Shown here: positions 438 through 31,415 of the stretch, in pieces
Position numbering within the stretch: the first letter of the stretch is position 1
Layout: every line of letters begins with the position of its first letter
Virus record (IMG/VR): IMGVR_UViG_3300026122_000001
Length of the DNA: 64,000 nucleotides
Strand: one strand, 5' to 3'
Source of the DNA: a virus
Taxonomy: Duplodnaviria > Heunggongvirae > Uroviricota > Caudoviricetes
The notes under the pieces: generated by a model
What the model was told of the DNA's origin: nothing
What the model saw: the letters and a program-made list of their open reading frames with translations, nothing else
Database searches by the model: none
Position numbers and translations under genes: made by a program

Positions 438-995
438 TTACTGCCCCTCATGCAGGTTGTCGCGTATCTCGTCTGGGGCGTCCATTGACACGCCATTGCG
501 AGAATCAGCCATGTGGTTCGGATTGCAACACAACGGGCCGCAACAAATCTGGGTGACGGGCCATTTCACTTTGGACAACTCATAGGCAACCTCATGGGCC
601 TTGTAGGTCCACTTGCGCCACCGGAAGAGGCCGTCCCCGTCCTGGTCAACTTCGCCAGCCCACAGCCAACAGTCCGTATCGGACCCCTTGCGGACACGGG
701 CCCAGAAGGAAGCCTTCTCACCGGGGCTCAATCGCATCTCGTAGGCCCGGACCGCAGCATCCTCGGTCACATACGTATTCTCTGCTTCGTAGAACTTCGT
801 TATGGGTCCCTTGGTAGCGATCCACGTATTGGGTATTTCAGTGAACCAGAAAGCTCCCCACCAAGACAGATTCTCACCCGCGACGATGAGCCGCTCAATT
901 GATCGGTCTGGGTGCAAATAATACACCACCATGCCGGGTTCGATTGGCACGTCTTGGTGTAGACTGCCGTGTTCCTGTTGCCGCCAACAATTCAT
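438..995 (-). CDS. HNH homing-endonuclease-like protein
   Basis: C-terminal 'CCGPLCCNPNHM' HNH motif preceded by a 'DCWLWAG...KAHEVAYEL' block typical of phage HNH_3 endonucleases. Overlaps the downstream gene by 4 nt. Confidence 0.7.
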   Translation of the reverse strand: MNCWRQQEHGSLHQDVPIEPGMVVYYLHPDRSIERLIVAGENLSWWGAFWFTEIPNTWIATKGPITKFYEAENTYVTEDAAVRAYEMRLSPGEKASFWARVRKGSDTDCWLWAGEVDQDGDGLFRWRKWTYKAHEVAYELSKVKWPVTQICCGPLCCNPNHMADSRNGVSMDAPDEIRDNLHEGQ

Positions 996-1918
996 GTGGC
1001 CAGTGCCTTTCCTAGCCAGTAAGGCCGATTGGTCTCGCGGCCCTCTTGAAAACTTGAGGCTGGGTTAGGGTCAGCACCATGCTGACCACATGCGGGGCAT
1101 AACCACCCGTGCCCGCCGGTGTCGACTTCCCTGTCACAATGCCAACATACTGCTACGCAGTTCGCTGGTCGCTCGTAGCCTGATGCTACGTCCGGCTGGC
1201 TGCTTGGGTTGACTTGATCCCAAATGTTGGCGATCTCGCTGTATGTCGGAAGTACCTCTGGGCTGACTTGGAAGTTGCCGTTGTTGCCCGTATTGTGTGG
1301 CAGCTTGTAAATGAAGGTGCCATTCCGCTCGTAGGCGTCCAGGTCCCAGGTCCAGTTCATTCCTTTGGTGTGCAACATCTCATGCAATGCGGCATGGCCC
1401 TTACCGTGCATCTCTTTCTGGGAGTACACCGAGTTGGCATACATCTGCACGGAATTACGCTTCCAATCCAGTGCGCGGGCGAGGAAGTAGTTTGCCACCT
1501 CGGACTCCGGGATGCTGAATGACCGGGCGTCAAAGTAGGCCAGTTGGGTGACGCTCATCAACCGCATGCACCTGGCAAAGTTGGCCGTCATCACCGAGGC
1601 AGCGATGCTCTCGATTTTGTTCTGGCAGTAACCGAACCATGCATCAGTCTGGAGGGTGTCGTAGTCCGTCATCACGAAGCTTGCTTCGTCACTCTGGATA
1701 TACCCCATCTTGAAGCCCTGCATGTCCGAAGCGACACCGAGTGCTGCCTGGAGCATCGACTCAATGAGCTTGCTGTCAAAGGGACGACGGAACCCCTTGG
1801 TGAACGTGTGGAACGCCCGCCCATCAATACGAACAACCACCGGTATCCGGCGGGGCAGAAACCGCCTGGCTGGCAGTTCGTAGTTCGTTTTCATACGATG
1901 CATGATCGAGTCGCTCAT
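992..1918 (-). CDS. tRNA-His guanylyltransferase (Thg1-like 3'-5' nucleotidyltransferase)
   Basis: N-terminal 'VVVRIDGRAFHTFTKGF..PFD' and 'GYIQSDEASFV' blocks match the Thg1 family (human THG1L 'VVVRLDGRNFHRF...AYGQSDEYSFVF'). C-terminal Cys/His-rich tail. Confidence 0.8.
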   Translation of the reverse strand: MSDSIMHRMKTNYELPARRFLPRRIPVVVRIDGRAFHTFTKGFRRPFDSKLIESMLQAALGVASDMQGFKMGYIQSDEASFVMTDYDTLQTDAWFGYCQNKIESIAASVMTANFARCMRLMSVTQLAYFDARSFSIPESEVANYFLARALDWKRNSVQMYANSVYSQKEMHGKGHAALHEMLHTKGMNWTWDLDAYERNGTFIYKLPHNTGNNGNFQVSPEVLPTYSEIANIWDQVNPSSQPDVASGYERPANCVAVCWHCDREVDTGGHGWLCPACGQHGADPNPASSFQEGRETNRPYWLGKALAT

Positions 1919-1936
1919 AGCTACGCTCCGAGTGGG

Positions 1937-2227
1937 TTACAGTCCGGGGTATCGATCTATTGCTTCGTTGACTAGCCGGTTGATGTCATCAAGTTCCACG
2001 TTAGCTAACTCGATGTCATGGGCCGCTGCGAGATAGCCAGCAATGACAATGGTTTCCCTACCATTCTCGACCGCCAAACGAATTTGTCTGTTCAGTTCCA
2101 TGCCGTCTTCGGCACTGATCTCGATGCCATGTAGGTCTTCAAGATATTCAGCAACAGCAATGGTGGCTTCAATTGCCCAGGCTGGTTGCACTTCCGGGTC
2201 AAGGGCTTGTTTCGCTTCGTCCGTCAT
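1937..2227 (-). CDS. hypothetical protein
   Basis: 96-aa ORF in the dense minus-strand gene array; no recognisable motif. Confidence 0.4.
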   Translation of the reverse strand: MTDEAKQALDPEVQPAWAIEATIAVAEYLEDLHGIEISAEDGMELNRQIRLAVENGRETIVIAGYLAAAHDIELANVELDDINRLVNEAIDRYPGL

Positions 2228-2456
2228 CAGCTATCTCCTTGGTTATCAATTCCTTGCCCCATTGGACTCTGTGCCAGCGGCGCTCATGGTAGTAGTACGC
2301 GAAAATCTTTAGAGCCGAGTCAATGACGCCAATCTCGGCACTTAGCTGTATGTTACCCGTGAAAAGGTAGACCAGCGTGGTTGTGATGGTCACAGAAATC
2401 ACACGCCAGGTACATGCCTTGGCCATCGAGCGGCGTCGTTGACTTGGATCGTGCAT
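2199..2456 (-). CDS. hypothetical small membrane protein
   Basis: 85-aa ORF with a hydrophobic segment (VISVTITTTLVYLFTG). Confidence 0.4.
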   Translation of the reverse strand: MHDPSQRRRSMAKACTWRVISVTITTTLVYLFTGNIQLSAEIGVIDSALKIFAYYYHERRWHRVQWGKELITKEIADDGRSETSP

Positions 2457-2471
2457 ATCAATCTCCTAAAG

Positions 2472-2544
2472 CTCCTGGGGGAGGACTTGAACCTCCAACC
2501 ACCTGATTAACAGTCAGGCGCTCTGCCAATTGAGCTACCCAGGA
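2472..2544 (-). tRNA. tRNA-Asn (anticodon GTT)
   Basis: Reverse complement folds as a 73-nt cloverleaf: acceptor TCCTGGG/CCCAGGA, D-arm GCTC-AATTGGCA-GAGC, anticodon arm CCTGA-CTGTTAA-TCAGG, T-arm GGAGG-TTCAAGT-CCTCC. Confidence 0.8.
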
Positions 2545-2551
2545 TTGGTCG

Positions 2552-2827
2552 TCAGTTACCCTTGGCGATGATGACCACTCGATCGACTTCTGTCAACGTG
2601 GATGTCCGCTCGGGCCCGTCCACGCCCTGCCGGGACTTGCCCGTGACTCGCAGATGGAGCCTGTCGGGGCGGAAGGAATCCGGGAGACCGGTGACTTTGG
2701 TGACCACCATGTGGTTCATCCACAGGCTGGACCCTTGACGCCCGGGGTAGACGATCGTGTCGCCGACCTCGATCTGATTGCCGAAATAATCGTTTGCTAC
2801 CACTTCTGTTGCTGTCGCTGTCGTCAT
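2552..2827 (-). CDS. hypothetical protein
   Basis: 91-aa ORF; 4-nt overlap with the upstream gene. Confidence 0.4.
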   Translation of the reverse strand: MTTATATEVVANDYFGNQIEVGDTIVYPGRQGSSLWMNHMVVTKVTGLPDSFRPDRLHLRVTGKSRQGVDGPERTSTLTEVDRVVIIAKGN

Positions 2828-5192: not shown

Positions 5193-5227
5193 TCTGTCTC
5201 TCCTGGGTAGGTAACAAACAACAAAAG

Positions 5228-5300
5228 AGCCGCCAGTGGGAGTCGAACCCACGACATGTTGATTACAAATCAACTGCTCTGCCAACTGAGCTACAGCGGC
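5228..5300 (-). tRNA. tRNA-Thr (anticodon TGT)
   Basis: Reverse complement folds as a 73-nt cloverleaf: acceptor GCCGCTG/TGGCGGC (2 GU pairs), D-arm GCTC-AGTTGGCA-GAGC, anticodon arm GTTGA-TTTGTAA-TCAAC, T-arm GTGGG-TTCGACT-CCCAC. Confidence 0.75.
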
Positions 5301-5650: not shown

Positions 5651-5672
5651 AGTTCTGTCTCAAGTGGATGTG

Positions 5673-5689
5673 CGGAGAATTGAACTCCG
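5673..5689 (-). ncRNA. isolated tRNA T-arm-like motif (CGGAG-TTCAATT-CTCCG) in a 320-nt non-coding region
   Basis: Reverse complement reads CGGAGTTCAATTCTCCG followed by CACATCCA. No complementary 5' acceptor strand or clean D/anticodon arms were found nearby, so I do not call it a tRNA. Confidence 0.25.
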
Positions 5690-6037
5690 GTCCTGCGATA
5701 CGGTCTCAAGCCCACGTCTACATGCTTAGCCACCCTTTATTTACCTGTCCCGAGAGTCGAGTGGCGTACTGACGGGCAGGTTGCGGCTGGACGGTTCTAT
5801 TTCCTCACCAACAACCCAGCGTAGGTCAATAAGGAGCATCCGGGTTACTAGGCCGCTGTGCTAACCTACCGGCAAGGTTGTCACGCCTACTGCCTGAGCA
5901 GCTAGTGCTCACGCAGACATCGCAAACAAATCATGTTTGGCGATTAAAGGTTTGGTCAGCTTTTAATGTAGCCTACTGACCAACTACGGCATGCAGTGGT
6001 ACTCTTCTGGTACCCAGTCGAATCCTGTCACCCCCTG

Positions 6038-7811: not shown

Positions 7812-8383
7812 ACAAGTCTCCTCCGCATAATAGAACGTAGCATGTCATCAAAGTGGTAGCGTTCAACTTCCCGGACGTTGAGTATCATCCAGTGAAGCTG
7901 TTTGGATGTGTAATGCTCCCACCAGTCGGCATCTTCTGGCCATGGGTCATCTGGCTCTGGGTCCAGCAAACCAAGCAGGTTGGCCAACCGAGCATAATGG
8001 TGGTCGAAACTTTCCCGGAACAAAACGTATTCGCAGTGATGGGCTTGCACAAATGTCCGCGAACCGGACCATTGCAGCAAAGCCTCATCCAGTGATTTGT
8101 CCCTGTAAAACATGTTGTGCCACCGCAGCAATGCAATGGCCGGATTGCAAACAACTGTGAAAAACTTGTACTCTGATCTGATGTCCTCTGTCAGTACGCA
8201 CCGAGTCACCAGACTGTTGTAGCTTTCGCCCGGGGAGCCGACGACACGCGACCCCGGGAGGTATGCCCATTGCATCCGAAACTTTAGCACGGGCACTAGG
8301 GGCTCGTCCAGAAACACCAGCTTCAAACGATCATTGATTATCGCCATGTCGTCGCTCGTAGGATTGGGGAGGCTGGTAACCAC
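7808..8383 (-). CDS. hypothetical protein
   Basis: 191-aa ORF; 4-nt overlap with the upstream gene. Confidence 0.45.
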   Translation of the reverse strand: MVTSLPNPTSDDMAIINDRLKLVFLDEPLVPVLKFRMQWAYLPGSRVVGSPGESYNSLVTRCVLTEDIRSEYKFFTVVCNPAIALLRWHNMFYRDKSLDEALLQWSGSRTFVQAHHCEYVLFRESFDHHYARLANLLGLLDPEPDDPWPEDADWWEHYTSKQLHWMILNVREVERYHFDDMLRSIMRRRLV

Positions 8384-8882
8384 GGGCCTTGTTGGTAATC
8401 ACAGGGATAAGATCGGGCATCCCTGTCGATTTGGCCCGGCTGATACACTCCTCTACGTCGGTCTCGATATGCTCGAATTCGACGGTCCAAGTCTGACCAT
8501 CAGGGTCGCGGCCCCAGTGGGCCAGGTTGTCACGATTCTTGCGGCACGTATTGGTGGCATCAAAGATAACCACCTTGTGGCCAGCCTCGAACAGTGCTTT
8601 GACCATAATGCGAGCCTGTGCCCACACCAAGTCTTCACAGGGCGCATAGTACCGGTGGCCATGAACGACAATCCTGATTGCGTCGGGACTCACAATCGGT
8701 GCGCCCAACGATTTTGCCAACTCTTGTGCCCGTGTAGTTTTGCCAGACCGGGCAGTCCCATCATTGCAACTAGCGTATTCATAAGTAACCAAGTTCCTCC
8801 ATTTCTTGCCCAAAGAGGTCATGCACAAGCTTATGTGCCCTCGCCTCGTGTTTGTAAAATTCCATATAGTGTGCTGGCCCAC
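8331..8882 (-). CDS. P-loop polynucleotide 5'-kinase-like protein (T4 Pnk kinase-domain-like)
   Basis: Walker A 'GTARSGKTT', then 'VVIFDATNTCRKNRDNLAHW', which resembles T4 Pnk 'VIISDTNLNPERRLAWETF'. No phosphatase domain. The start is ambiguous (alternative Met at 8822) because the 5' end overlaps the sulfotransferase gene. Confidence 0.6.
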   Translation of the reverse strand: MGQHTIWNFTNTRRGHISLCMTSLGKKWRNLVTYEYASCNDGTARSGKTTRAQELAKSLGAPIVSPDAIRIVVHGHRYYAPCEDLVWAQARIMVKALFEAGHKVVIFDATNTCRKNRDNLAHWGRDPDGQTWTVEFEHIETDVEECISRAKSTGMPDLIPVITNKARGYQPPQSYERRHGDNQ

Positions 8883-9303
8883 GCAGCCCAGTACAGTCTT
8901 TAGCAGGTAGGGTAACTGGTACTAAGCCAATACCGACCAAGACCTGATTCAACTGGGCTTCCAAGTTGGCCTCATATCGCAATACGTGAGTTGCATACAG
9001 ACTGTGCCAAAACAGTCGGCCGTCCGGAAGGAAATGTGTGTTTCTGGACCACATGCGAATGAACTCGTACAATGACAGCTTATGATTGCGACTTGTCTTG
9101 TGCCACCACGAAATCATCACATCCAGTGGGTTGCGAACAGTGGTCACCACGGTCCAGCCGGTCGGCTTTGGCACCGTCAGCCCTGTGTGGTGACTTCCCA
9201 CCATCTCGGCACCAAACTTGCCTACAAGCACATCCCTGGTAGCCACAGAGGCTGTCCGGGGGTGGGCGAGGTAGCAAAACTGTTTATCGGCGATTTCGTA
9301 CAT
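8779..9303 (-). CDS. sulfotransferase-family-like protein
   Basis: 'AHPRTAS' resembles the 5'-PSB loop (PKSGTT) and 'RNPLDVMISWW' resembles the 3'-PB RNPxD motif of PAPS-dependent sulfotransferases. Confidence 0.5.
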   Translation of the reverse strand: MYEIADKQFCYLAHPRTASVATRDVLVGKFGAEMVGSHHTGLTVPKPTGWTVVTTVRNPLDVMISWWHKTSRNHKLSLYEFIRMWSRNTHFLPDGRLFWHSLYATHVLRYEANLEAQLNQVLVGIGLVPVTLPAKDCTGLRGPAHYMEFYKHEARAHKLVHDLFGQEMEELGYL

Positions 9304-10631
9304 CAGATGCTGACTTCGTCTAGCATGTCAATCTTGAATCGCTGGGGCCCGGCGGCATCAGTTTCCGGACGCCGCAAGCGAACAGGCAAACGCCAGGTGA
9401 CGCCGTACTTCTGGTTGACCCCATGCAACAACTGTGTGGGCTCAGTGAAACCAGAGAAAGCGTTGAAGGCATACGGGTCCGTGGCTACCCAGGCACCGTT
9501 AATCATCAACTCGCCATCCATCTCGGTGGTCGTGCCGGGTCGATGGAAATGGCCGCAACAGTAATAGCGAATCGGCGGGCCCGCCATGTGGCGATCCAGG
9601 CCCATGATCCGGCGTTGTCGACGTTCCAGCCCATACCACGGGATACCCATGTTGCTGCGAATGTCGTCGCCATGGAACACACAGAACCCCACGCCGCCAA
9701 TGTCGAGGTTGACAGAGAAGGAGTTCGGAATCGCGAAGTCCACGTTGGGTAGATCGGAACAATACATCTGGGCCGTTTTCGCGACCAGGTAATCCCAGTT
9801 GTCATGCGCACCATGGTAGTTCTTCTTCACTGACCGACGGCCGTGGTTACCAGGCACATAAACGACATTCACTTGCTTGAAGTACGGGGCCAGGTCCCGG
9901 AACATCAAAGCGTGAAGCTGGCCGATGGCCAGTGTGTTCTTGAAGATATTTCGGAAATAGGATCGTTCCACATGACCGTGAATCTCACCGCTGGTATGGT
10001 CGCCATAACAGAGGATGGTAAGGTCCGGAAAATGGAACTGCGGTGCCAGCGTATGCTGTGTCCACTTGATGACAGCATCAACATACCGCTCCGCACGGGC
10101 AACACTGACGGGAAAATTGTAGTTCTCCAGCCCGCCGACCTTCTCAGGTGTGACAACCTGATCGTGGTGACCATCGGAGATGTGCATGACCAAATGTTCG
10201 GTCACATCACCGTGCTTGCGACATCGTGGCCTCCGTCGGGAGGGCGGCAGCGGGGACATGGGGACAATGCGGTCCTCAAGCTCGTCAGCGATGGCCAAGA
10301 ACAATCCGTGCTCCTTGGCTGCGGCTTTCAAACCCTTACGGGCATCGTTGCGCTCGACACGAAGATGTTCCACATCGGCCTGCAACTCCAGTATCCTTTC
10401 GTCAGTGGGGTCATAGGATTCAGTTGGGGCCGACACCCTTTTACTGGCAAGCGTGACACCCTTATCGGCATGTGACCGCCCACATTGGATGTCCGAGACA
10501 TAGCTACGACTGATACCGTATTTCTCGGCCGCCGTTGCCTGTTTCATCCCGCCAGCCAAATCGGCCTTCAACTCGACGACTTTCTCTTCAGTCAATAGTG
10601 GGTTTGCTTTCGCCATTTGGGGAGACCTCAT
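9303..10631 (-). CDS. HTH-domain / calcineurin-like metallophosphoesterase fusion protein
   Basis: N-terminal HTH-like segment (ATAAEKYGISRSYVSDIQ), a coiled-coil, then phosphoesterase motifs 'HISDGHHDQ', 'CYGDHTSGEIHG' and 'YVPGNHG'. Confidence 0.7.
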   Translation of the reverse strand: MRSPQMAKANPLLTEEKVVELKADLAGGMKQATAAEKYGISRSYVSDIQCGRSHADKGVTLASKRVSAPTESYDPTDERILELQADVEHLRVERNDARKGLKAAAKEHGLFLAIADELEDRIVPMSPLPPSRRRPRCRKHGDVTEHLVMHISDGHHDQVVTPEKVGGLENYNFPVSVARAERYVDAVIKWTQHTLAPQFHFPDLTILCYGDHTSGEIHGHVERSYFRNIFKNTLAIGQLHALMFRDLAPYFKQVNVVYVPGNHGRRSVKKNYHGAHDNWDYLVAKTAQMYCSDLPNVDFAIPNSFSVNLDIGGVGFCVFHGDDIRSNMGIPWYGLERRQRRIMGLDRHMAGPPIRYYCCGHFHRPGTTTEMDGELMINGAWVATDPYAFNAFSGFTEPTQLLHGVNQKYGVTWRLPVRLRRPETDAAGPQRFKIDMLDEVSI

Positions 10632-10682: not shown

Positions 10683-11780
10683 TCAAGCTCTATCTTGAGG
10701 GTTTTTCCGGTCATAATAGTCTGCGCTGACTACCTTCGCAATCATGCGGGCACGCATCTTTGCCGACCATTGCTCTTTAAGAGGTGTGACCACACACCCC
10801 TCACGGCCTTTGAATGGGCTGTTGATGTCGGCCGGTGAGGCCACCATTGTGGGCCCGTCACAATGAAGCATCTTGGTCTCGTCAAACGCACCCTCAAAGA
10901 GCAGGGGAACAGTCGGAACGCCATGCTTGTCCGCATAGGCCTTCACATCGGCCCAGTCCATGTACTGCATGTCACCGACGGGGCCCGCCATGATGTCAAA
11001 TAGGCGATACCCAGTTCGACCAAGGGCCCCATAGTCCATATCCTGGACCTTGCGGCCATAGATTTCGCCATAGGCCACCGCAGAGCAGCCCTCACCCATG
11101 GTACTGACAATATCTGCCAGCATGTTCTTCATGGCCCCAGTCATGGGTAACCAATACAGGGAGGCACGAGACCCTGACCGAGCGTCCGACATCGGTTTCA
11201 CGTTGGTCGTGTGTGACCCGCACATGAATTCGGGCCCCTCGTCGGTATGAATCAATCCAACCCGGCTGTTGGTCCCATGAATCTTCTCGGTGATGCGAAC
11301 CATTGTGCCTGGCGGGATCGCTCCGGGATGGGCCCGCAAATGCTTGATGCTGGTGTAGATCGGAAACAGCATGTGATCCGGCCGGGCATCGCCAGCGGTC
11401 ATTTCAATCGGCGGCTCGTACTTGACGCCATGATACATCGCGGTGACATTGGTGCCGAATGTCATGTCCCCAGCGTATCTTATCACGAAGCCAAAGGAGG
11501 CCTCGCCACGAATACGAATTGCCCCGACCCGGCATTGTGATTTCTTCTCGTCCCCGGGGTAGACAGAATGCTTCAAGTACCGCTGGGTGCCCAACGCTTC
11601 AGCTACCGATGATGGGATGAGAATGTCTGGCGGGAAGAAAACCACCGAGTCCCCAACCCGATACAAGTCCCGTTGCACAGCGAGTTGGAAACCCAAGACC
11701 TGAATCACATCCAACCGGTCAGCGTTGGGGTGCGGTTTGACTTCGTTGACTCGTTCAATGGTGATAAGCGTCTGGCTCAT
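10683..11780 (-). CDS. ATP-dependent RNA ligase with N-terminal tRNA-binding (OB/Myf-like) domain
   Basis: Nucleotidyltransferase motif I 'ITEKIHGTN' (KxHGxN) and an N-terminal 'NADRLDVIQVLGFQLAV...VVFFPPD' OB-fold-like tRNA-binding segment. This is the DraRnl/NgrRnl-type architecture. Confidence 0.7.
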   Translation of the reverse strand: MSQTLITIERVNEVKPHPNADRLDVIQVLGFQLAVQRDLYRVGDSVVFFPPDILIPSSVAEALGTQRYLKHSVYPGDEKKSQCRVGAIRIRGEASFGFVIRYAGDMTFGTNVTAMYHGVKYEPPIEMTAGDARPDHMLFPIYTSIKHLRAHPGAIPPGTMVRITEKIHGTNSRVGLIHTDEGPEFMCGSHTTNVKPMSDARSGSRASLYWLPMTGAMKNMLADIVSTMGEGCSAVAYGEIYGRKVQDMDYGALGRTGYRLFDIMAGPVGDMQYMDWADVKAYADKHGVPTVPLLFEGAFDETKMLHCDGPTMVASPADINSPFKGREGCVVTPLKEQWSAKMRARMIAKVVSADYYDRKNPQDRA

Positions 11781-18857: not shown

Positions 18858-18866
18858 CGGTAAACC

Positions 18867-20692: not shown

Positions 20693-21230
20693 CGAACACC
20701 TCCTTCAGAATATCAAATGAAAACGGTTTCAGCATACCGAGGCATTGCAAGGCATGGTCCACGCCCACATCGGTTGCTTTTCGCTTGGGCCAAATACTGT
20801 TGAGCATCTCTTCGCGGTTGCTGTGACAGTGTCCGTACAAATTCCAAGCACCCATAGCTTCGCCGGGCCATGTAACAAACGGGCAATGGCACAGTGTTAT
20901 CCGCTGTCCGTATGGGCTGATCTCCAACAGCCTGTTGCAGGTGCTAAAATGTGTGGCCGCTGAGTTCCGATCGTGGTTGCCTTGGATCAAATGTACTTCG
21001 CGGCACTCAATGCGTTGGCGGTAATGGCCCACCTTGCGTGCGCCCCAACAAAAGTCACCCAGAATGTACAAAATGTCATCCCGCCGCACACACGTATTGA
21101 TCTCGTGCAGGATACACTCGTCCATCTCGTCTATGATGTCGAATGGTCGATCACACATCTTTAGGATACCGAGATGCCCAAGATGCAGATCGGCCGTAAA
21201 CCATGTCTTCTTAGACTGTGACCGGCTCAT
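20673..21230 (-). CDS. calcineurin-like metallophosphoesterase (phage protein-phosphatase-like)
   Basis: Motifs 'FTADLHLGH', 'YILGDFC' and 'IQGNHD'. Confidence 0.7.
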   Translation of the reverse strand: MSRSQSKKTWFTADLHLGHLGILKMCDRPFDIIDEMDECILHEINTCVRRDDILYILGDFCWGARKVGHYRQRIECREVHLIQGNHDRNSAATHFSTCNRLLEISPYGQRITLCHCPFVTWPGEAMGAWNLYGHCHSNREEMLNSIWPKRKATDVGVDHALQCLGMLKPFSFDILKEVFDARSAA

Positions 21231-25911: not shown

Positions 25912-26871
25912 TCAATAGTGTGGGTTTTGCCGAGCGAAATCGGCCATGACCTTGGGTGCCCCGGCGTCGAAGCCGACCACATCCATCATTCCGGCGTCAT
26001 TCGGGTCCGCAATGGACACTCTGTTGGCCGTGAATGCAACGACAATCATTTTGGCGTCGATCCCCATCTTGCGACGGTACTCCTGTAGGACTACCGACGG
26101 GTGCCCACTATGGGAGTTTGTGTCGTTATCCGTGTAGATGCAGAACACATCGACTGGAATCTTGTTCTCCATGGCGTAGATCATCGGCAACGCACAGTCT
26201 GTGCCGCCCCAGGCAGCGTCCTGGGTCAACCGCCGAACCTCTGTCAGTGAGGACCGCTTGGTAATCGGCATGGGCTTCAGGTGGTGACAGAACGCGAAGC
26301 ACGCAACCTGCTCCTCCGTTCGGACCAACGTGGTCGCCATGCACCCGGCGGCGTCCGCTGGTGTCAGATGCGTGTTACTGATCGTATCAAATCGCATGGA
26401 GCCGGAGACATCGATCCCGACCAGATAGCGTTTACCGGTAGGCTCCACAGAGCCAAATGAGGCATCATAGGCGTCTTCCAAGGCATCACAGACCTGAGAG
26501 ACCGGGTTCCACTGGAGGCTGCCCTTCACGCCTTTACCAGCACTGTAGGTCGTCAGGGCCAACAGAACATTGAACGGATGAATCCGCTGCTTGGCCAGGG
26601 CCTCTTTGTCACGAAGCTGGTCACAGACCATCTTGGTGTGTTTGGTATTCGGCCGCAGGACCCCAATACTGGACATCTTGCCCAGATTGCGAATCATCGC
26701 CGTGAGCGGCATCCCCAAGTTCAGTAGGGCTTCCCACACCACTGGCTCATTCAGGAACTGAGTAGGGACGCACTCGCGCACAAGTCCGTATTCCTCAATC
26801 AGCATGGCTGCATATTCGGCACTTGGTGCGGCTTTGATAGCCTCCACACCCTGCAACGTAAGGCCGACCAT
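25912..26871 (-). CDS. rsr: Ro60 (TROVE/vWA) orthologue lacking the N-terminal ~200 residues
   Basis: 'EALLNLGMPLTAMIRNLGKM', 'RIHPFNVLLALTTY', 'VEPTGKRYLVGIDVSGSM' and 'GGTDCALPMIYA...DVF...TDNDT...HP..LQEYRRKMGIDAKMIV...ADPNDAGMMDVVGFDAGAP' are collinear with human Ro60 from about residue 200 to the C-terminus. No ORF encoding the missing HEAT-repeat N-terminus lies upstream. Confidence 0.8.
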   Translation of the reverse strand: MVGLTLQGVEAIKAAPSAEYAAMLIEEYGLVRECVPTQFLNEPVVWEALLNLGMPLTAMIRNLGKMSSIGVLRPNTKHTKMVCDQLRDKEALAKQRIHPFNVLLALTTYSAGKGVKGSLQWNPVSQVCDALEDAYDASFGSVEPTGKRYLVGIDVSGSMRFDTISNTHLTPADAAGCMATTLVRTEEQVACFAFCHHLKPMPITKRSSLTEVRRLTQDAAWGGTDCALPMIYAMENKIPVDVFCIYTDNDTNSHSGHPSVVLQEYRRKMGIDAKMIVVAFTANRVSIADPNDAGMMDVVGFDAGAPKVMADFARQNPHY

Positions 26872-27330
26872 GTACCGGAACTCCGGTCGAACACCCTCAC
26901 CCGTCTCGGACGGGAGCGCTCACACGCTCACTTTCACTTGTTGTTGCTGGCCAGGTTGCCCGTTTCCTAACCAGGCTTGTTGGTGCTGGCTCAGGAACGC
27001 CCTGGGTTACCCCACAGACGAACCCGAAACCAGGCTTGTTCAATGGCCTCGAACAAAGTGCGGCTTGGAGTTTATTCTACTGGCGCTCTCCCAACTGAGC
27101 TACCCCCTGCATACATCGAAAGGCGGGGAGGAGGATTTGAACCACCGACATCCAGTTCCCTTGATAATCCAAACCAACGGCTCAAGGCCAAGCAAGCACT
27201 AGGGGACTCGAACCCCTAACCGACGACCATCGCACTTGCATAAAAGGTGGAGCTTGCTGGGATACGACTGCCTACTGAAAGGGTTTCGTCCCCCAACCGC
27301 TCCATAAGGATGCCACGAACAAGTTTGCAA
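26872..27330 (-). ncRNA. array of non-canonical tRNA-like modules; candidate Y RNA(s) (YrlA-like)
   Basis: On the minus strand: two T-arm mimics (AGGGG-TTCGAGT-CCCCT with extended 7-bp stem at 27199-27220; GGTGG-TTCAAAT-CCTCC at 27128-27146) and one acceptor+D-arm mimic (GCAGGGGGTAGCTCAGTTGGGAGAGCGCC at 27080-27110). None closes into a cloverleaf. There are also hairpins and a 13-nt direct repeat (aaccaggcttgtt at 26969 and 27028). All sit immediately 5' of the Ro60-like gene. Confidence 0.35.
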
Positions 27331-27543
27331 CCGAGGGATTAAATTGTGCTTGATAACCCTCGACCAGCGGCTCGTGGCAAGTGCCGACGCCGGGTACTCG
27401 ATCCCGGCGAAGGCTGTGTCTCACTACATCGGACCGTCCTCCATGGTTAGTGTCCGCTTGTCGTTTGTTTCCTCTCGTCATTCCTTACATTCTCAATTAT
27501 ATCACACTCGGACAGGGTTGTCAAACAGAAACCTTGAATTTGG

Positions 27544-27835: not shown

Positions 27836-28162
27836 TCAGTTCTCCGATACTAGATTTCTGTGTGCCCTCAGTGCGACCCAATGTTGGCGTTCCATTAAGG
27901 CCAGCCGGTCACGTTCCTTCTGAACAATTGCCGCCGGGGCCCGACTCACGAAGTTTTCATTAGCCAACTTCTCTCGACGCTTCACAATTAACTTGTCCAA
28001 CCGCGATATAGCTTTGCTCAGATTTGCAATCGCTTCCTGTGAAGTATCACCGGGTACGGTGACGTACATCGTGATCTCCGACATCCCGAGTGTCGCTGGT
28101 ATCACAACGGTCTCTATATGGCTCTCATGGCCCATCTTCGTCCTCGACTTCATCTGGCACAA
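27836..28162 (-). CDS. valyl-tRNA synthetase C-terminal coiled-coil domain-like protein
   Basis: 'KLANENFVSRAPAAIVQKERDRLA' matches the ValRS C-terminal tRNA-binding coiled-coil signature (KLxNxxFxxKAPxxVVxxEREKL). Confidence 0.5.
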   Translation of the reverse strand: MCQMKSRTKMGHESHIETVVIPATLGMSEITMYVTVPGDTSQEAIANLSKAISRLDKLIVKRREKLANENFVSRAPAAIVQKERDRLALMERQHWVALRAHRNLVSEN

Positions 28163-28686: not shown

Positions 28687-28758
28687 GTGGGGCATAGGGG
28701 AATTGAACCCCTGTTGCCGGGTTGAAGGCCCGGTGTCCTAACCACTAGACGAATGCTC
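28687..28758 (-). tRNA. tRNA-Glu (anticodon TTC)
   Basis: Reverse complement GGAGCATTCGTCTAGTGGTTAGGACACCGGGCCTTCAACCCGGCAACAGGGGTTCAATTCCCCTATGCCCCA. D-arm GTCTAGTGGTTAGGACACC closely matches E. coli tRNA-Glu. Anticodon arm CCGGG-CCTTCAA-CCCGG; T-arm AGGGG-TTCAATT-CCCCT. Confidence 0.8.
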
Positions 28759-29050
28759 CTGGGTCTGCTGTCACAATTCGGTACATGTGTTGAAGAATCT
28801 CTGCCTCACACCAGCTAGAAAAACTTGACAGTGTGTAATCAGCGGCTGCCATATCTACCCAAAATGTGATATACAACGGGCGACCATCCTGGCACGGCAT
28901 CATCACCTGGATCATGCGTCCGCCGGGACCATGCCTGGGTGATGGCTGCACTGTGACCGTGCCACCATACTGAGCCGCCATGGTGCGAATCCGACCCAAC
29001 CTCAGAGGCTTAAAATTCATGGCCACATGGACACTCCCGTTTACGTACAT
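28745..29050 (-). CDS. hypothetical protein (trimmed from longer ORF)
   Basis: The long ORF's N-terminus overlaps the basic zinc-ribbon gene out of frame. An internal Met (MYVNG) gives a 102-aa product. Confidence 0.3.
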   Translation of the reverse strand: MYVNGSVHVAMNFKPLRLGRIRTMAAQYGGTVTVQPSPRHGPGGRMIQVMMPCQDGRPLYITFWVDMAAADYTLSSFSSWCEAEILQHMYRIVTADPGAFV

Positions 29051-29958: not shown

Positions 29959-29967
29959 ATGTTCCGC

Positions 29968-30784
29968 CTACGGGTAGTATTTCATCAGTGCGGACCCATC
30001 GTAACTTGCCCAGAGCTTGGGGTACGTTTCTTTGATGAGCGTGAGCAGAAAACCAAGGTCGCCGCCACCAGTCGACGAGTCTTGGAGGCAACAGTCTGCC
30101 GACTCCAGTATCTCGACGGCGCGAGCTTCGTCAATGTGAACTGTGAAGCCAACCCCGGCGGGGCATTGTTCACTGGCCGGGCCTTCCAGTCTTTCGAGCC
30201 GCTCCTTGAGATCATCATTCTCGTACTTGTCGGCCCGCAATTCACGGATGAGGCCAGCGGCTCCAGCCATGAAGCGTCTGTAGGACCCAACGGAGGCCAC
30301 AGAGGCTACGCTGTCCGCTACGGGTGATCTACCGTCGGCCAACGCATCCATTGCAACCAAGAACCCGTCATAGTACGGTCTGTCATCAAGTTTCATGGCC
30401 TCCAAGGTCTCGCCGTTATGCTTCTGGTCCAACCAGTTATGTCGCCACATGGCCGCCGCTGCCCGCCGCTGCCCGCCACTCCTCGGTGGCCAACCCCCAG
30501 TCGCCGCCATACGAATTGGCGATGATGACCCAGGCCATCTCCAAGTCCTCCGCATACGCCGCTGCCTCGGTGTCCAGTGTCTCAGCAAACATAGACGCCA
30601 ACTCGGGGTCCATGATCTTGTCCGATGTGGCCGGGCCGCACCAACATTGGGCCGCGAGTTCAGTTGCTCGCTGGCTGGGCTTGGGCTTCTCGTACAGGTA
30701 TGTCCGTGGTACGAATGCTGTGTCAGAGTCTTGTTGTGACATGATTTCCTCAGTCATAGAAGATATAGTCCAAATACGCCACAC
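29968..30784 (-). pseudogene. possible frameshifted gene (two overlapping ORFs joined by a 10-bp tandem duplication)
   Basis: ORFs 30437..30784 and 29968..30588 overlap in different frames exactly at 'gcc gctgcccgcc gctgcccgcc' (30448-30475). Removing one 10-bp copy would fuse them in frame. Confidence 0.3.
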
Positions 30785-30847
30785 GGTACACGTTGTTCCA
30801 CTGAGGCCCGGTAATGTACCGACCCAACTGGCGAAGGCCCAGTAATG

Positions 30848-31174
30848 TCAGCGCAAGCAGAATGAGCGGGGAGCCACAATAATGTTGGTGGTCTCATTTA
30901 GGCTGGGAGCCCATCTCTGCAATTTGTCATAGCACCATTTGCTTGATGCCATAAGCCAAACGCCAGCGTACCATCGAATGTTGTTCCACATATCTTGCTC
31001 CCACTCAAAGAACCAATTGCCGCCCCTCTGGATCATCTCTCTCCCCAGTGTTACAGCACCGAGTCGGGCCGAGGCAAACCAGTCCAGAGTTCCCTCGATC
31101 AACTTTCCGGGCGTCCCCTTCGGCGAGCGGACTTGGTCCTCTGTAAGGTGACCCGGGGGCAGCCGCATGGCCAC
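30848..31174 (-). CDS. hypothetical protein
   Basis: 108-aa ORF. Confidence 0.4.
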   Translation of the reverse strand: MAMRLPPGHLTEDQVRSPKGTPGKLIEGTLDWFASARLGAVTLGREMIQRGGNWFFEWEQDMWNNIRWYAGVWLMASSKWCYDKLQRWAPSLNETTNIIVAPRSFCLR

Positions 31175-31239
31175 CAGTGGTCGGTTCCCGTCTCAGTGAC
31201 CAAACATCGATCGGGGCCGTTCTTCCGGGTCATAAGTTT

Positions 31240-31331
31240 GGCCCGTAGAGGAATCGAACCCCTGACTCCCCACCCACCGCCGTGTTCAACATTGGTAGGA
31301 CCAGGGTGCTTTACCACTAAGCTAACGAACC
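31240..31331 (-). tRNA. long (92-nt) tRNA-like gene, anticodon unresolved
   Basis: Reverse complement has acceptor GGTTCGT/ACGGGCC (2 GU pairs), D-arm GCTT-AGTGGTA-AAGC and T-arm AGGGG-TTCGATT-CCTCT. The 44-nt region between D- and T-arms does not fold into a clear anticodon arm by eye. Confidence 0.45.
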
Positions 31332-31341
31332 GAACCGTAAG

Positions 31342-31415
31342 TAGCGGAGGCTGGACTCGAACCAGCGGTCTCCAGGTTATGAGCCTGACGAGATGACCAT
31401 CTTCTCTACTCCGCA
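31342..31415 (-). tRNA. tRNA-Met/fMet/Ile2 (anticodon CAT)
   Basis: Reverse complement: D-arm GAGA-AGATGGTCA-TCTC, anticodon arm TCAGG-CTCATAA-CCTGG, T-arm GCTGG-TTCGAGT-CCAGC, acceptor TGCGGAG/CTCCGCT with a 1:72 T.T mismatch. Confidence 0.7.

What the first reader, a model, noticed from the sequence alone, without database searches (positions are those of the whole stretch)
992..31415. Phage-encoded tRNA maintenance toolkit: Thg1, Pnk-like kinase, phosphoesterase, RNA ligase, own tRNAs, ValRS C-domain protein
The window encodes four canonical tRNAs (Asn, Thr, Glu, Met) plus tRNA-like genes. It also encodes a Thg1-like 3'-5' nucleotidyltransferase, which can rebuild tRNA 5' ends, and a Pnk/phosphoesterase/ligase set that can reseal anticodon-loop breaks. 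A standalone ValRS C-terminal tRNA-binding domain protein and a Ro60-like protein complete the set. Taken together this looks like a counter-defence against host tRNA-cleaving or tRNA-depleting immunity such as PrrC/RloC-type anticodon nucleases or VapC-like toxins. It goes further than the known T4 Pnk/Rnl1 pair.
Basis: inference. Interest (0 to 1): 0.7.

Follow-up and report, generated by a model that had tools for sequence, protein, structure and literature searches.

The report
Phage RNA-repair and translation-support gene set
An uncultivated ~156-kb phage carries its own tRNAs, a tmRNA, two Y RNAs and a set of RNA-end repair enzymes; every listed part is really there, but this kind of toolkit and its proposed anti-defence role are already described for large phages.

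Summary
All the listed features exist at the stated coordinates. The window holds four canonical tRNAs, one aberrant 93-nt tRNA-like gene, a bacterial-type Thg1-like protein, a T4-Pnk-type kinase, an RNA ligase, two calcineurin-like phosphoesterases, a ValRS-arm protein and a Ro60 gene.

Corrections and additions:
- The ligase is Rnl5-type (NgrRnl/DraRnl). That family seals nicks in duplexes. It is not a T4 Rnl1-like sealer of anticodon loops.
- The 442-aa phosphoesterase beside the ligase most resembles DNA exonucleases (PolD DP1, SbcD/Mre11), not RNA 3'-phosphatases.
- The Ro60 gene is a 5'-deleted remnant that lacks about 219 residues of the RNA-binding ring.

The gene order is conserved in related 160-178-kb metagenomic phages. 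A counter-defence role against tRNA damage is plausible but untested, and the host is unknown. The same idea was published by Anantharaman et al. 2010 and Iyer et al. 2021. I rate this a new member of a known kind, of modest interest.

The parts
992..1918 (-). Thg1-like protein (bacterial TLP type), 308 aa. It has a C-terminal CxxC...CxxC extension of about 75 aa that the 230-aa relative in L006 lacks.
   Evidence: Pfam PF04446 at 92 bits. phrog_4717 'tRNA-His guanylyltransferase' at 239 bits. PDB 4kgk (BtTLP) E 3e-41, with RIDG and SDE aligned. The same 308-aa gene call appears on the 156-kb contig.
2471..2544 (-). tRNA-Asn(GUU)
   Evidence: ARAGORN and Rfam, 72.6 bits. The same isoacceptor is kept in the distant phages L009 and L010.
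5227..5300 (-). tRNA-Thr(UGU)
   Evidence: ARAGORN and Rfam, 67.9 bits. Kept in L007, L009 and L010.
5662..6035 (-). tmRNA with tag AKHDLFAMSA
   Evidence: Rfam RF00023, 111 bits against a gathering score of 47. Syntenic tmRNAs in L006 (132 bits) and L007 (124 bits). The tag frame is conserved: AKPLFALSA and AKPLFATAA.
8331..8822 (-). Stand-alone polynucleotide-kinase-like P-loop kinase, 163 aa
   Evidence: AAA_33. phrog_505 'polynucleotide kinase'. Profile A8 hits T4 Pnk (1ly1/1ltq) best at E 8e-12, then Pnkp1, PSTK and the CthPnkp kinase domain. The P-loop G/G/K and the D47-x-x-R50 motif are invariant. Called as 163 aa in L012.
9303..10631 (-). HTH + coiled coil + calcineurin-like metallophosphoesterase, 442 aa, nuclease-like
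10683..11780 (-). Rnl5-type (DraRnl/NgrRnl) ATP-dependent RNA ligase, 365 aa
   Evidence: PF09414 + PF21189. TIGR02306 at 124.7 bits over its full length. Profile A10 against NgrRnl 5cot, E 3.6e-19, full length. AF2 mean pLDDT 89; Foldseek against NgrRnl TM 0.70-0.77, E about 1e-19. The KIHG lysine is invariant.
20673..21230 (-). Small Metallophos_2-type phosphoesterase, 185 aa
   Evidence: PF00149/PF12850. phrog_547 'phosphoesterase' at 143 bits. It lies in the same block as the ligase in the distant phages L009-L011. Weak PdeM-like hit.
25912..26871 (-). 5'-deleted Ro60/Rsr remnant, 319 aa: last HEAT repeats plus the vWA domain
   Evidence: vWA_Ro60 at 202 bits; TROVE matched only at positions 278-351 of 442. 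The Rsr model is matched at 220-528 of 531. Relatives are 521-529 aa. The window lacks L001 4456-5472.
27040..27192 (-). YrlA-type Y RNA (Y2): a long terminal stem plus a circularly permuted tRNA-like domain (T arm, closed acceptor hairpin, D arm)
   Evidence: Sub-threshold Rfam YrlA hits at the same place in four phages. Independent MFE folds give the same architecture. RNAalifold predicts 40 pairs, 14 with compensatory changes.
27193..27311 (-). Conserved structured spacer: a hairpin ending in GCUCCACC and a U run, then a minihelix with a T-arm-like GGGGUUCGAGUCCCC
   Evidence: 92% identical to L001, the best-conserved stretch of the region. MFE z -2.2. The T-arm and stem change in a compensatory way in L002 (by eye).
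27312..27379 (-). Short Y RNA-like hairpin (Y1), with the same stem / asymmetric loop / stem design as the base of Y2
   Evidence: Hits the nematode Y-RNA homologue model RF01656 at 27.7 bits, E 0.002 on 711 nt. MFE z -2.55. Present in four phages; 18 pairs, 4 compensatory.
27496..27524 (-). Perfect sigma-70-type promoter TTGACA-17-TATAAT (with extended TG) ahead of the Y RNA cluster
   Evidence: 12 of 12 matches. Conserved in L001.
27836..28162 (-). Stand-alone protein homologous to the ValRS C-terminal coiled-coil tRNA-binding arm
   Evidence: PF10458 at 48 bits. Aligns to ValRS 783-852 of 860. Orthologues in L001, L002 and L005 carry the same Pfam hit. Fast-evolving: dN/dS 0.52.
28687..28759 (-). 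tRNA-Glu(UUC) with C at position 33 and an A3.C70 mismatch
   Evidence: ARAGORN and Rfam, 60.9 bits. Alignment with relatives.
31239..31331 (-). 93-nt tRNA-like gene with an expanded, non-canonical anticodon arm. ARAGORN calls it 'Arg-CCU'.
   Evidence: Rfam tRNA at 45.6 bits, with 33 nt in place of 11 in the anticodon arm. ARAGORN's anticodon stem has two mismatches. The counterparts in L002 and L005 differ in this arm.
31341..31415 (-). tRNA-Met(CAU) with a U1.U72 mismatch
   Evidence: ARAGORN and Rfam, 60.8 bits. L002 also has U1.U72; L005 has A1-U72.

Best explanation
Window 1-35 kb is the one-strand 'early/auxiliary' region of an uncultivated tailed phage of about 156 kb. Besides nucleotide-metabolism genes, it carries a set of RNA-end repair and translation-support functions.

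Proposed mechanism (the family identities are shown; the substrates and the purpose are inferred):
1. The Pnk-type kinase phosphorylates 5'-OH ends left by metal-independent RNases.
2. The Thg1-like protein uses such 5'-phosphate ends to rebuild missing 5' nucleotides of tRNA acceptor stems, by templated 3'-5' addition.
3. The Rnl5 ligase seals 3'-OH/5'-phosphate nicks that lie within base-paired RNA. It does not seal open anticodon loops. The nuclease-like 442-aa metallophosphoesterase encoded next to it probably cleans or trims the 3' end first.
4. The phage's own tRNAs (Asn, Thr, Glu, Met) and its tmRNA keep translation going when host tRNAs are depleted or ribosomes stall.
5. Two Y RNAs, one a permuted tRNA mimic, are made from a strong promoter. 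Their original partner, the phage Ro60, has lost its N-terminal half in this phage.

Together this would act as damage control for the translation apparatus during infection, most plausibly against host tRNA-targeting defences.
For: - Thg1-like protein: closest to BtTLP (E 3e-41), with the metal-binding D (RIDG) and DE (SDE) conserved. 160 phage records carry such genes.
- Kinase: its profile matches T4 Pnk, Pnkp1 and CthPnkp best, with the P-loop and the DxxR motif invariant.
- Ligase: full-length Rnl5 by sequence profile and by structure. Its N-terminal OB domain also hits Trbp111/MetRS-C tRNA-binding folds.
- Operon layout: ligase, phosphoesterase, a 174-aa ORF and the kinase are packed or overlapping on one strand. 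This order is kept in L006 and L007.
- Distant phages: the ligase-phosphoesterase link extends to distant phages, once with RlaP directly after the phosphoesterase (L011). A 50%-identical ligase sits beside RtcB and an RNase T-like exonuclease (L008).
- Separate DNA ligase: the phage has a separate ATP-dependent DNA ligase just outside the window, so the Rnl5 enzyme is not needed for ordinary DNA sealing.
- RNAs: the tmRNA and tRNAs are conserved in relatives. The Y RNAs are supported by covariation.
- Literature: Thg1-Pnk-ligase neighbourhoods and a proposed anti-defence role (PMC2904730). The large-phage RNA-repair repertoire (PMC7824862). Phage tRNAs that neutralise tRNA-cleaving defences (PMC10264068, PMC11464382, PMC11555353).
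Against: - There is no direct evidence on any substrate.
- The genes are interleaved with RNR, ThyX, a methyltransferase, a GT41 glycosyltransferase and an SNF2 helicase. Conservation of gene order within the clade is whole-region synteny, not a specific linkage.
- The only in vivo phenotype of an Rnl5 ligase is in DNA repair after ionising radiation (PMC5397189).
- The phosphoesterase's nearest folds are DNA exonucleases, and the model has only pLDDT 72.
- No AAA_33 kinase was called within 8 kb of the phosphoesterase in the distant phages L009-L011.
- Among the ORFs I scanned, the window has no Rnl1, RtcB, HAD or 2H phosphatase, CCA-adding enzyme, RlaP or peptidyl-tRNA hydrolase.
- The Ro60 gene is truncated.
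- The ValRS-arm protein evolves fast (dN/dS 0.52).
- The host and its defence systems are unknown.
Confidence: 0.5

Rival explanations
1. The ligase, phosphoesterase and kinase block is a DNA replication/repair module. An exonuclease-like metallophosphoesterase, a 5' kinase and an Rnl5 ligase would process and seal genomic nicks whose 3' end is ribonucleotide, such as primer junctions or ribo-patch gap filling. The tRNAs, tmRNA and Thg1-like protein would simply support translation (codon supply, host shut-off), with no link to host immunity.
For: - DraRnl acts at duplex nicks with two or more 3' ribonucleotides, and its loss delays genome reassembly after irradiation (PMC5397189).
- The best structural relatives of the phosphoesterase are PolD DP1, SbcD, Mre11 and polymerase B-subunits, and its PHROG is 'exonuclease'.
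- The 185-aa phosphoesterase weakly resembles PdeM, a ligase-associated DNA-damage-response enzyme.
- The block lies near ParB, DNA polymerase A and an SNF2 helicase in this phage and in distant ones.
- The phosphoesterase is 60-65% conserved across about 1000 proteins, as expected of a core replication function.
Against: - The phage already has a conventional ATP-dependent DNA ligase.
- Relatives place the ligase next to RtcB or RlaP, which are RNA-repair markers.
- The kinase's nearest relatives include RNA-repair kinases (Pnkp1, CthPnkp) and a tRNA kinase (PSTK).
- The OB domain of the ligase resembles tRNA-binding OB folds.
Confidence: 0.3
2. There is no concerted system. The region is a mosaic of individually acquired accessory genes with separate or redundant roles, and some of them are decaying. 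The 'toolkit' is a pattern imposed by the reader.
For: - The parts are scattered over 30 kb among unrelated genes.
- The Ro60 gene has suffered a 5' deletion of about 1 kb, and a neighbouring ORF was lost, relative to L001.
- tRNA-Glu carries a window-specific A3.C70 mismatch.
- The tRNA-like gene next to tRNA-Met is structurally aberrant and varies between relatives.
- The kinase was not seen with the ligase in distant phages.
Against: - The same set (Thg1-like protein, tmRNA, kinase, phosphoesterase, ligase, Y RNAs, Ro60, ValRS-arm protein, tRNAs) is kept in relatives whose proteins are only 66-84% identical.
- Genes in the sampled stretch from the ValRS-arm protein to the M28 peptidase are under purifying selection (dN/dS 0.04-0.25 for all but the ValRS-arm protein at 0.52).
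- Catalytic motifs are intact.
- Cultured Caulobacter giant phages combine a Thg1-like protein, an Rnl5-like ligase and a TROVE protein.
Confidence: 0.15
3. The Thg1-like protein matures the phage's own tRNAs. It would either add G-1 to a phage tRNA-His encoded elsewhere, or carry out mitochondrial-type 5' editing of phage tRNAs that carry mismatches in the first acceptor pairs.
For: - tRNA-Met has a U1.U72 mismatch in the window and in L002.
- tRNA-Glu has A3.C70 in the window.
- Thg1-like proteins carry out exactly this kind of 5' editing in protist mitochondria (established knowledge).
Against: - The A3.C70 mismatch is found only in the window; relatives have G3-C70.
- L005 has a paired A1-U72 although its genome also encodes a Thg1-like protein.
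- No tRNA-His was found in the window or in the 10 kb beyond its left end.
Confidence: 0.05

Closest known systems
RNA-repair repertoire of large and jumbo phages (Iyer, Anantharaman, Krishnan, Burroughs, Aravind 2021, PMC7824862; Thg1-Pnk-ligase contexts in Anantharaman et al. 2010, PMC2904730)
   Same: The same components and the same proposed logic: phage tRNAs, ATP-dependent RNA ligases, polynucleotide kinase, phosphoesterases (in a few phages calcineurin-like), sporadic Thg1, and a ROT/TROVE protein with a tRNA-like RNA partner. All are read as a response to host attacks on the translation apparatus.
   Different: - This phage is about 156 kb, below the usual jumbo threshold.
- Its ligase is Rnl5-type, not among the Rnl1, Rnl2 or RtcB ligases named in the passages of that survey that I read.
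- The kinase stands alone, with no HAD phosphatase.
- The candidate 3'-end enzyme is nuclease-like.
- Ro60 is truncated.
- A tmRNA is present; that survey does not mention tmRNAs (0 occurrences).
T4 Pnk / Rnl1 repair of PrrC-cleaved tRNA-Lys
   Same: It uses a phage-encoded 5' kinase of the same clade (T4 Pnk is the best PDB match to the kinase profile) plus an ATP-dependent RNA ligase. It is the only experimentally proven phage tRNA-repair counter-defence.
   Different: - No Rnl1 is present. The ligase is Rnl5, a duplex nick sealer with an N-terminal OB domain.
- The kinase has no fused 3'-phosphatase domain.
- No tRNA-Lys is encoded in the window.
- The host anticodon nuclease, if there is one, is unknown.
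[quoted passage not shown]
   Same: Full-length similarity in sequence profile and in predicted structure, with an N-terminal OB domain, a nucleotidyltransferase domain and the KxxG lysine. As in the D. radiodurans rnl-DR_B0095 operon, the ligase gene lies beside a putative 3' exonuclease.
   Different: It scores below the NCBIfam equivalog cut-off (124.7 against 151) and is about 20% identical to NgrRnl. The neighbouring nuclease is a metallophosphoesterase, not a DEDDh enzyme. The setting is a phage.
Mycobacteriophage, Streptomyces and Gordonia phage Ro60 with YrlA Y RNAs (Chen et al. 2014, PMC4201824)
   Same: A Y RNA with a tRNA-like domain lies upstream of a phage Ro60 gene on the same strand. 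Ro-like proteins are annotated in 361 phage records.
   Different: - Here Ro60 has lost residues 1 to about 219, while the Y RNAs stay conserved.
- The Y RNAs score far below the Rfam YrlA threshold (21-32 bits against 69).
- The Ro-binding motif is GCCG(U/C)UG rather than GNCGAAN0-1G.
- There are two Y modules plus further conserved structured RNA.
Caulobacter phages CcrColossus and CcrPW (Colossusvirus)
   Same: These cultured phages appear in all three protein searches: Thg1-like protein (13 Caulobacter phage records), Rnl5-like ligase and TROVE-like RNA-binding protein. In CcrPW, tRNAs and a nucleotidyltransferase lie close to the ligase.
   Different: Only 25-27% identity for the ligase and the TROVE protein. 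Their genomes are 280-308 kb, with different gene order and a different lineage.

Membership tests
Thg1 / Thg1-like protein (TLP) | Thg1 catalytic domain above the Pfam threshold, and closest to bacterial TLPs | tested here: met
   PF04446 at 92 bits against 29.2. BtTLP 4kgk E 3e-41; eukaryotic Thg1 only about 1e-6.
Thg1 / Thg1-like protein (TLP) | Metal-binding carboxylates (human Thg1 D29, D76, E77) | tested here: met
   RIDG (D32) and QSDE (D77, E78) align with the same residues of BtTLP. The residue numbering of human Thg1 is from my own knowledge.
Thg1 / Thg1-like protein (TLP) | Templated 3'-5' nucleotide addition to 5'-truncated tRNA | not testable with these tools
   Needs an enzyme assay.
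Rnl5 (DraRnl/NgrRnl) RNA ligase | N-terminal OB domain + nucleotidyltransferase domain, with no C-terminal module | tested here: met
   PF21189 + PF09414. Profile aligns to NgrRnl 9-325 of 340. Foldseek TM 0.70-0.77.
Rnl5 (DraRnl/NgrRnl) RNA ligase | Motif I lysine (KxxG) and conserved nucleotidyltransferase motifs | tested here: met
   K166, H168 and G169 are invariant; E239, K324 and R326 are invariant in 36 homologues.
Rnl5 (DraRnl/NgrRnl) RNA ligase | NCBIfam TIGR02306 equivalog cut-off | tested here: not met
   124.7 bits against a cut-off of 151.15, although aligned over the full length. This is a divergent member.
Rnl5 (DraRnl/NgrRnl) RNA ligase | Seals duplex nicks whose 3'-OH strand is RNA | not testable with these tools
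   Needs an enzyme assay.
T4 Rnl1-type tRNA anticodon-loop ligase | Rnl1 family nucleotidyltransferase with a C-terminal tRNA-specificity domain | tested here: not met
   No Rnl1 entry among the listed PDB matches; the best matches are Rnl5, then Rnl2.
Polynucleotide 5'-kinase (T4 Pnk clade) | P-loop plus the DxxR phosphoacceptor motif, with nearest solved relatives being Pnk enzymes | tested here: met
   Invariant G22, G27, K28, D47, R50. T4 Pnk E 8e-12, Pnkp1 4e-11, CthPnkp 3e-7.
Polynucleotide 5'-kinase (T4 Pnk clade) | Fused 3'-phosphatase domain (HAD in T4 Pnk, metallophosphoesterase in CthPnkp) | tested here: not met
   A 163-aa protein with a kinase domain only.
Bacterial Pnkp/Hen1 or Pnkp1-Rnl-Hen1 RNA repair system | Hen1 2'-O-methyltransferase partner | tested here: not met
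   The nearby methyltransferase has the Methyltransf_23 + Methyltransf_14 (sugar C-methyltransferase-like) architecture and no Hen1 NCBIfam hit.
RNA 3'-end healing phosphoesterase (CthPnkp / lambda-phosphatase type) | Binuclear metallophosphoesterase motifs | tested here: met
   DxH, GD, GNH, H and GHxH are all invariant in 32 homologues.
RNA 3'-end healing phosphoesterase (CthPnkp / lambda-phosphatase type) | Closest structural relatives are phosphomonoesterases or cyclic phosphodiesterases acting on RNA ends | tested here: not met
Ro60 / Rsr | Complete TROVE HEAT-repeat ring | tested here: not met
   Only TROVE 278-351 of 442 and Rsr 220-528 of 531 are matched. The window lacks the DNA that encodes the first ~214 residues in L001.
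Ro60 / Rsr | C-terminal vWA/MIDAS domain | tested here: met
   PF25045 at 202 bits, 1-165 of 165.
YrlA-type bacterial Y RNA | Rfam RF02553 gathering score | tested here: not met
   21.3 bits in the window and 29-32 bits in relatives, against 69.
YrlA-type bacterial Y RNA | Encoded within 4 kb of Ro60 on the same strand (criterion of Chen et al. 2014) | tested here: met
   170-500 nt upstream of the Ro60 ORF in the window, and in the non-coding gap upstream of Ro60 in L001, L002 and L005.
YrlA-type bacterial Y RNA | Terminal Ro-binding stem plus a tRNA-like domain with T arm, D arm and a closed acceptor-like stem | tested here: met
   Single-sequence MFE folds. Consensus fold with 14 of 40 pairs changed in a compensatory way across 4 sequences.
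YrlA-type bacterial Y RNA | GNCGAAN0-1G motif near the 5' end | tested here: not met
   The corresponding conserved motif is GAGCCG(U/C)UGG.
tmRNA | Rfam RF00023 gathering score and a conserved tag reading frame | tested here: met
   111 bits against 47. Tags are in frame in three phages. ARAGORN calls the L006 copy with the tag AKPLFALSA but misses the window copy.
ValRS C-terminal tRNA-binding arm (PF10458) | Pfam gathering score and the conserved motif of the arm | tested here: met
   48.1 bits against 25.9. The motif KLANENFVSRAPAAIVQKERDRL is present. The same hit occurs in orthologues. tRNA binding itself is not testable here.

The most novel reading that the evidence does not exclude
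The Pnk-type kinase, the nuclease-like phosphoesterase, the Thg1-like protein and the Rnl5 ligase could form one pathway of 'reverse gap repair' for base-paired RNA, such as tRNA stems.
1. The exonuclease trims a damaged 3' end.
2. The kinase phosphorylates the 5'-OH.
3. The Thg1-like protein refills the gap from the 5' side by templated 3'-5' synthesis.
4. The duplex-specific Rnl5 ligase seals the resulting nick.

Separately, the phage keeps its tRNA-mimic Y RNAs under selection without a functional Ro60 of its own. They may work with host Rsr, or as decoys for tRNA-recognising host enzymes.
Probability: 0.1. Interest if true: 0.7.

Novelty: new member of a known kind. Interest (0 to 1): 0.3.

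Why it matters
If the set does repair or replace damaged tRNA, it adds an uncultivated phage clade to the phages that fight translation-targeting immunity by means beyond T4 Pnk/Rnl1. It would also give the Rnl5 ligases, whose physiological role is still called 'uncharted' (PMC5397189), a concrete viral context: a conserved neighbour that looks like an exonuclease. The Y RNA cluster, retained beside a broken Ro60 gene, is a small natural experiment on whether phage Y RNAs need a phage Ro60. None of this changes current concepts. It supplies candidates for biochemistry.

Tried and rejected
- Close relatives. Megablast of 19 kb against 50,697 phage records gave no match. A viral-contig scan with the Ro60 peptide found nothing. 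Relatives came only from metagenome and Logan contigs through protein searches.
- Host identification. Cluster look-ups carry no names or taxa, so the host stays unknown. I did not use the genome-contig scan, because the tRNA and tmRNA sequences are too generic to be informative.
- Mitochondrial-type 5' tRNA editing by the Thg1-like protein. I rated this unlikely: the A3.C70 mismatch of tRNA-Glu is window-specific, and the 1:72 mismatch of tRNA-Met is not kept in L005.
- Hen1-type methyltransferase next to the ligase. Not supported. The GT41 protein resembles a protein N-glucosyltransferase.
- ARAGORN with introns and lowered thresholds on the Y RNA region. It gave only forced, overlapping 'intron' tRNAs, which I discarded.
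- The 69-aa ORF at 27272-27481 lies across the conserved RNA region and has no family hit, so I treat it as spurious.
- dN/dS of the Ro60 remnant (0.17). It is averaged over the whole divergence from L001, so it cannot tell whether the remnant is still functional.

Full report
**What the window is.** Genes run almost entirely on the minus strand up to about 35 kb, and the G+C content is about 54%. No cultured phage is close at the DNA level. Identical proteins lie on metagenomic contigs of 156,241-156,271 bp. Syntenic relatives with 66-89% protein identity lie on a 16.8-kb contig (L001) and on contigs of 160-178 kb (L002-L007). The right half of the window encodes a DUF5906 primase/helicase-like protein and giant proteins with lectin-like domains. 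ParB, DNA polymerase A and an ATP-dependent DNA ligase lie just beyond the left end. This is an uncultivated tailed phage, and its host is unknown.

**Check of the observation.** Every listed item is present.
- tRNAs. Asn(GUU), Thr(UGU), Glu(UUC) and Met(CAU) score 61-73 bits against the Rfam tRNA model.
- tRNA-like gene. A fifth, 93-nt gene beside tRNA-Met has canonical acceptor, D and T arms. Its anticodon arm carries 33 nt where 11 are expected, and ARAGORN's 'Arg-CCU' reading has two mismatched pairs in the stem. It is a tRNA-like RNA, not a decoding tRNA. Its counterparts in relatives differ in exactly this arm.
- Thg1-like protein (992-1918). It is of the bacterial type. The Bacillus thuringiensis Thg1-like protein is the best solved relative (E 3e-41), and the metal-binding D and DE residues are kept.
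- Kinase (8331-8822). It is a 163-aa stand-alone P-loop protein. A profile of 40 homologues finds T4 polynucleotide kinase first (E 8e-12), then Pnkp1, PSTK and the kinase domain of Clostridium Pnkp. The P-loop and the DxxR motif are invariant.
- ValRS-arm protein (27836-28162). It passes the Pfam threshold, carries the characteristic motif, and has orthologues with the same hit. It evolves fast.

**The ligase.** The 365-aa protein has an N-terminal OB domain and a nucleotidyltransferase domain. It aligns over its full length to TIGR02306 (DRB0094 family), below the equivalog cut-off. Its family profile matches Naegleria gruberi RNA ligase end to end (E 3.6e-19) and matches T4 Rnl2 only in the catalytic domain. 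A confident model (pLDDT 89) superposes on NgrRnl with TM 0.70-0.77. It is therefore an Rnl5 ligase. Characterised Rnl5 enzymes seal 3'-OH/5'-phosphate nicks in duplexes whose 3'-OH strand is RNA. Their physiological function is described as uncharted, and loss of DraRnl sensitises D. radiodurans to ionising radiation (PMC5397189, PMC4408790, PMC7261155).

**The phosphoesterases.**
- The 442-aa protein next to the ligase has an N-terminal HTH, a coiled coil and a calcineurin-like domain. All five metal-binding motifs are invariant.
- It belongs to a PHROG annotated 'exonuclease'.
- The protein is 60-65% identical across about a thousand metagenomic homologues. Many share contigs with ligase homologues. 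In the distant phages L009-L011 the phosphoesterase lies within about 3 kb of the ligase, and in L011 it is directly followed by RlaP.
- A 50%-identical ligase in another phage sits beside RtcB and an RNase T-like exonuclease. DraRnl itself is in an operon with a DEDDh-like exonuclease. A recurring 'Rnl5 plus 3' exonuclease' pairing is my inference from these cases.
- The second phosphoesterase (185 aa, 20673-21230) belongs to the same conserved block in distant phages. It resembles PdeM only weakly.

- Ro60 remnant. The Ro60 ORF is 319 aa and matches only positions 220-528 of the Rsr model. Relatives encode 521-529 aa. Compared with L001, the window lacks about 1 kb that covers a 93-aa ORF and the first ~214 codons of Ro60. 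It also lacks a 332-bp stretch holding an 89-aa ORF. The remnant cannot form the RNA-binding ring.
- Y RNA cluster. Upstream of the remnant, a perfect TTGACA-17-TATAAT promoter precedes about 600 nt of non-coding sequence. This stretch is 86-92% identical to L001, against 78-83% DNA identity for the flanking, mostly coding stretches.
- Y1 (27312-27379) is a hairpin that hits the model for the nematode Y RNA homologue.
- Y2 (27040-27192) has a base with the same design as Y1: a lower stem, an asymmetric loop with GAGCCG(U/C)UGG opposite (A)CUU(U)GUUCG, and an upper stem. It opens into a four-way junction that reads as a circularly permuted tRNA, with a T arm, an acceptor stem closed by a loop, and a D arm.
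- Support for Y2. Sub-threshold YrlA hits fall at the same position in four phages. Independent folds agree. With only four sequences, 14 of 40 consensus pairs show compensatory changes. For Y1, 4 of 18 pairs do.
- Prior knowledge. Y RNAs that mimic tRNA next to phage Ro60 genes are known (22 phages in Chen et al. 2014, PMC4201824). Ro-like proteins are annotated in 361 phage records.
- tmRNA. A tmRNA lies at 5662-6035 (111 bits). It is conserved at the syntenic place in relatives, with in-frame tags AKHDLFAMSA, AKPLFALSA and AKPLFATAA.

**Organisation.** The methyltransferase, GT41 glycosyltransferase, ligase, phosphoesterase, 174-aa ORF and kinase are tightly packed or overlapping on one strand, so they are probably co-transcribed. 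The Thg1-like gene lies about 6.4 kb further downstream, past the tmRNA and two tRNAs. The order is the same in L006 and L007, but there the whole region is syntenic, so this is weak evidence for a specific functional link. No AAA_33 kinase was called within 8 kb of the phosphoesterase in the distant phages L009-L011. No Hen1 was detected, nor any Rnl1, RtcB, RlaP, HAD or 2H phosphatase, CCA-adding enzyme or peptidyl-tRNA hydrolase, among the window ORFs I scanned.

**Most likely mechanism.** The shown parts are the family identities, the intact catalytic motifs, the conservation and the RNA structures. The inferred parts are as follows.
- The kinase phosphorylates 5'-OH RNA ends.
- The Thg1-like protein rebuilds 5'-truncated tRNA acceptor stems.
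- The Rnl5 ligase seals nicks in base-paired RNA after the nuclease-like phosphoesterase has cleaned the 3' end.
- The phage tRNAs and tmRNA sustain translation.

The purpose would be to withstand tRNA-directed host defences. I give this a probability of 0.5. The main rival (0.3) is that the ligase, phosphoesterase and kinase serve DNA replication or repair at ribonucleotide-terminated nicks, while the RNAs and the Thg1-like protein merely support translation. The separate DNA ligase and the RtcB and RlaP neighbours in relatives argue against this rival. The fold of the phosphoesterase and the DraRnl phenotype argue for it.

[quoted passage not shown] The full repertoire was laid out for jumbo phages in 2021 (PMC7824862): tRNAs, ligases, Pnk, phosphoesterases including calcineurin-like ones, Thg1, and a TROVE protein with a tRNA-like partner. 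Thg1-like genes occur in 160 phage records and Rnl5-like ligases in 64. Caulobacter Colossusvirus phages combine a Thg1-like protein, an Rnl5-like ligase and a TROVE protein. Phage tRNAs as counter-defence are experimentally established. The finding is real but is a new member of a known kind. Three details are new here: the Rnl5-exonuclease-like pairing, the truncated Ro60 beside retained Y RNAs, and the aberrant tRNA-like gene. Interest: 0.3.

Noticed in passing
ARAGORN misses it in the window but calls the L006 orthologue. The tag ends in SA or AA rather than the usual LAA. No SmpB family hit appeared among the window ORFs I scanned.
   Followed up: yes
window 26860-27040 compared with L001 3988-5472: Two deletions relative to the closest relative. 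One removes an 89-aa coiled-coil ORF. The other removes a 93-aa ORF plus the first ~214 codons of Ro60. The ATG of the remnant at 26871 is not an ATG in L001.
   Followed up: yes
window 26971-27039 (-): A 69-nt element that is 94% identical to L001 4320-4388, more conserved than any nearby coding DNA. It folds into a hairpin of about 50 nt (z only -1.3). No Rfam family matched, and it was not found in L002 or L005. Its function is unknown.
   Followed up: partly
window 27193-27311 (-): The best-conserved stretch of the RNA cluster (92% identity to L001). It holds a hairpin ending in GCUCCACC followed by a U run, which could be a tRNA-3'-end-like sequence or a terminator. A minihelix with a perfect T-arm consensus follows. 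This may be a third tRNA-like RNA.
   Followed up: partly
window 28687-28759 (-); L001 2264-2336; L005 6671-6743; L002 6650-6723: tRNA-Glu(UUC) has C instead of the near-universal U at position 33 in the window, L001 and L005; L002 has U33. This fits the published idea that phage tRNAs carry anticodon-loop changes that evade anticodon nucleases (PMC10264068), but I did not test it.
   Followed up: partly
window 2471-2544 and 5227-5300; L009 13732-14247; L010 11168-11482: The tRNA-Asn(GUU)/tRNA-Thr(UGU) pair is kept in phages whose ligase is only about 47% identical, and the tRNA sequences themselves have diverged. This points to long-term selection for these two isoacceptors.
   Followed up: partly
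window 992-1918 (-), residues ~235-308: The Thg1-like protein carries a C-terminal extension with a CxxC-(11)-CxxC zinc-ribbon-like motif. The orthologue in L006 is 230 aa, so it appears to lack the extension.
   Followed up: no
window 11777-14880 (-); L009-L011: A TcaB9-like methyltransferase (zinc ribbon + Methyltransf_23 + Methyltransf_14) and a GT41 glycosyltransferase that resembles protein N-glucosyltransferase lie upstream of the RNA ligase in all related phages examined (a small ORF intervenes in L010, and several genes in L009). The target of the glycosylation is unknown.
   Followed up: partly
window 14808-19811, 25306-25785, 32532-33320 (-): A nucleotide-metabolism set: class II ribonucleotide reductase, ThyX, a MazG-like pyrophosphatase, a nucleoside 2-deoxyribosyltransferase-like protein and a dCMP deaminase, with an M28 peptidase in between. 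It may reflect modified-nucleotide synthesis.
   Followed up: no
window 31550-32416 and 43503-44069 (-): Two SPFH/Band_7 domain proteins in one phage genome. The first is conserved beside tRNA-Met in relatives.
   Followed up: no
window 47432-63978 (-): Giant ORFs of 2765, 781 and 1968 aa. The first two carry Laminin_G_3 / concanavalin-like lectin domains and the third a DUF5050 domain. They are presumably fibre or adhesin proteins.
   Followed up: no
window 3595-5192 (-): A radical SAM protein (distant MoaA/TrsS/viperin-like hits) and a vWA protein lie between tRNA-Asn and tRNA-Thr. The radical SAM gene is conserved in relatives. Its function is unknown, and I found no evidence for a tRNA-modification role.
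   Followed up: partly
L012 18936-20051 (about 9 kb beyond the window's left end): The phage encodes a separate ATP-dependent DNA ligase (PF14743), as well as DNA polymerase A and a second ParB-like protein.
   Followed up: partly
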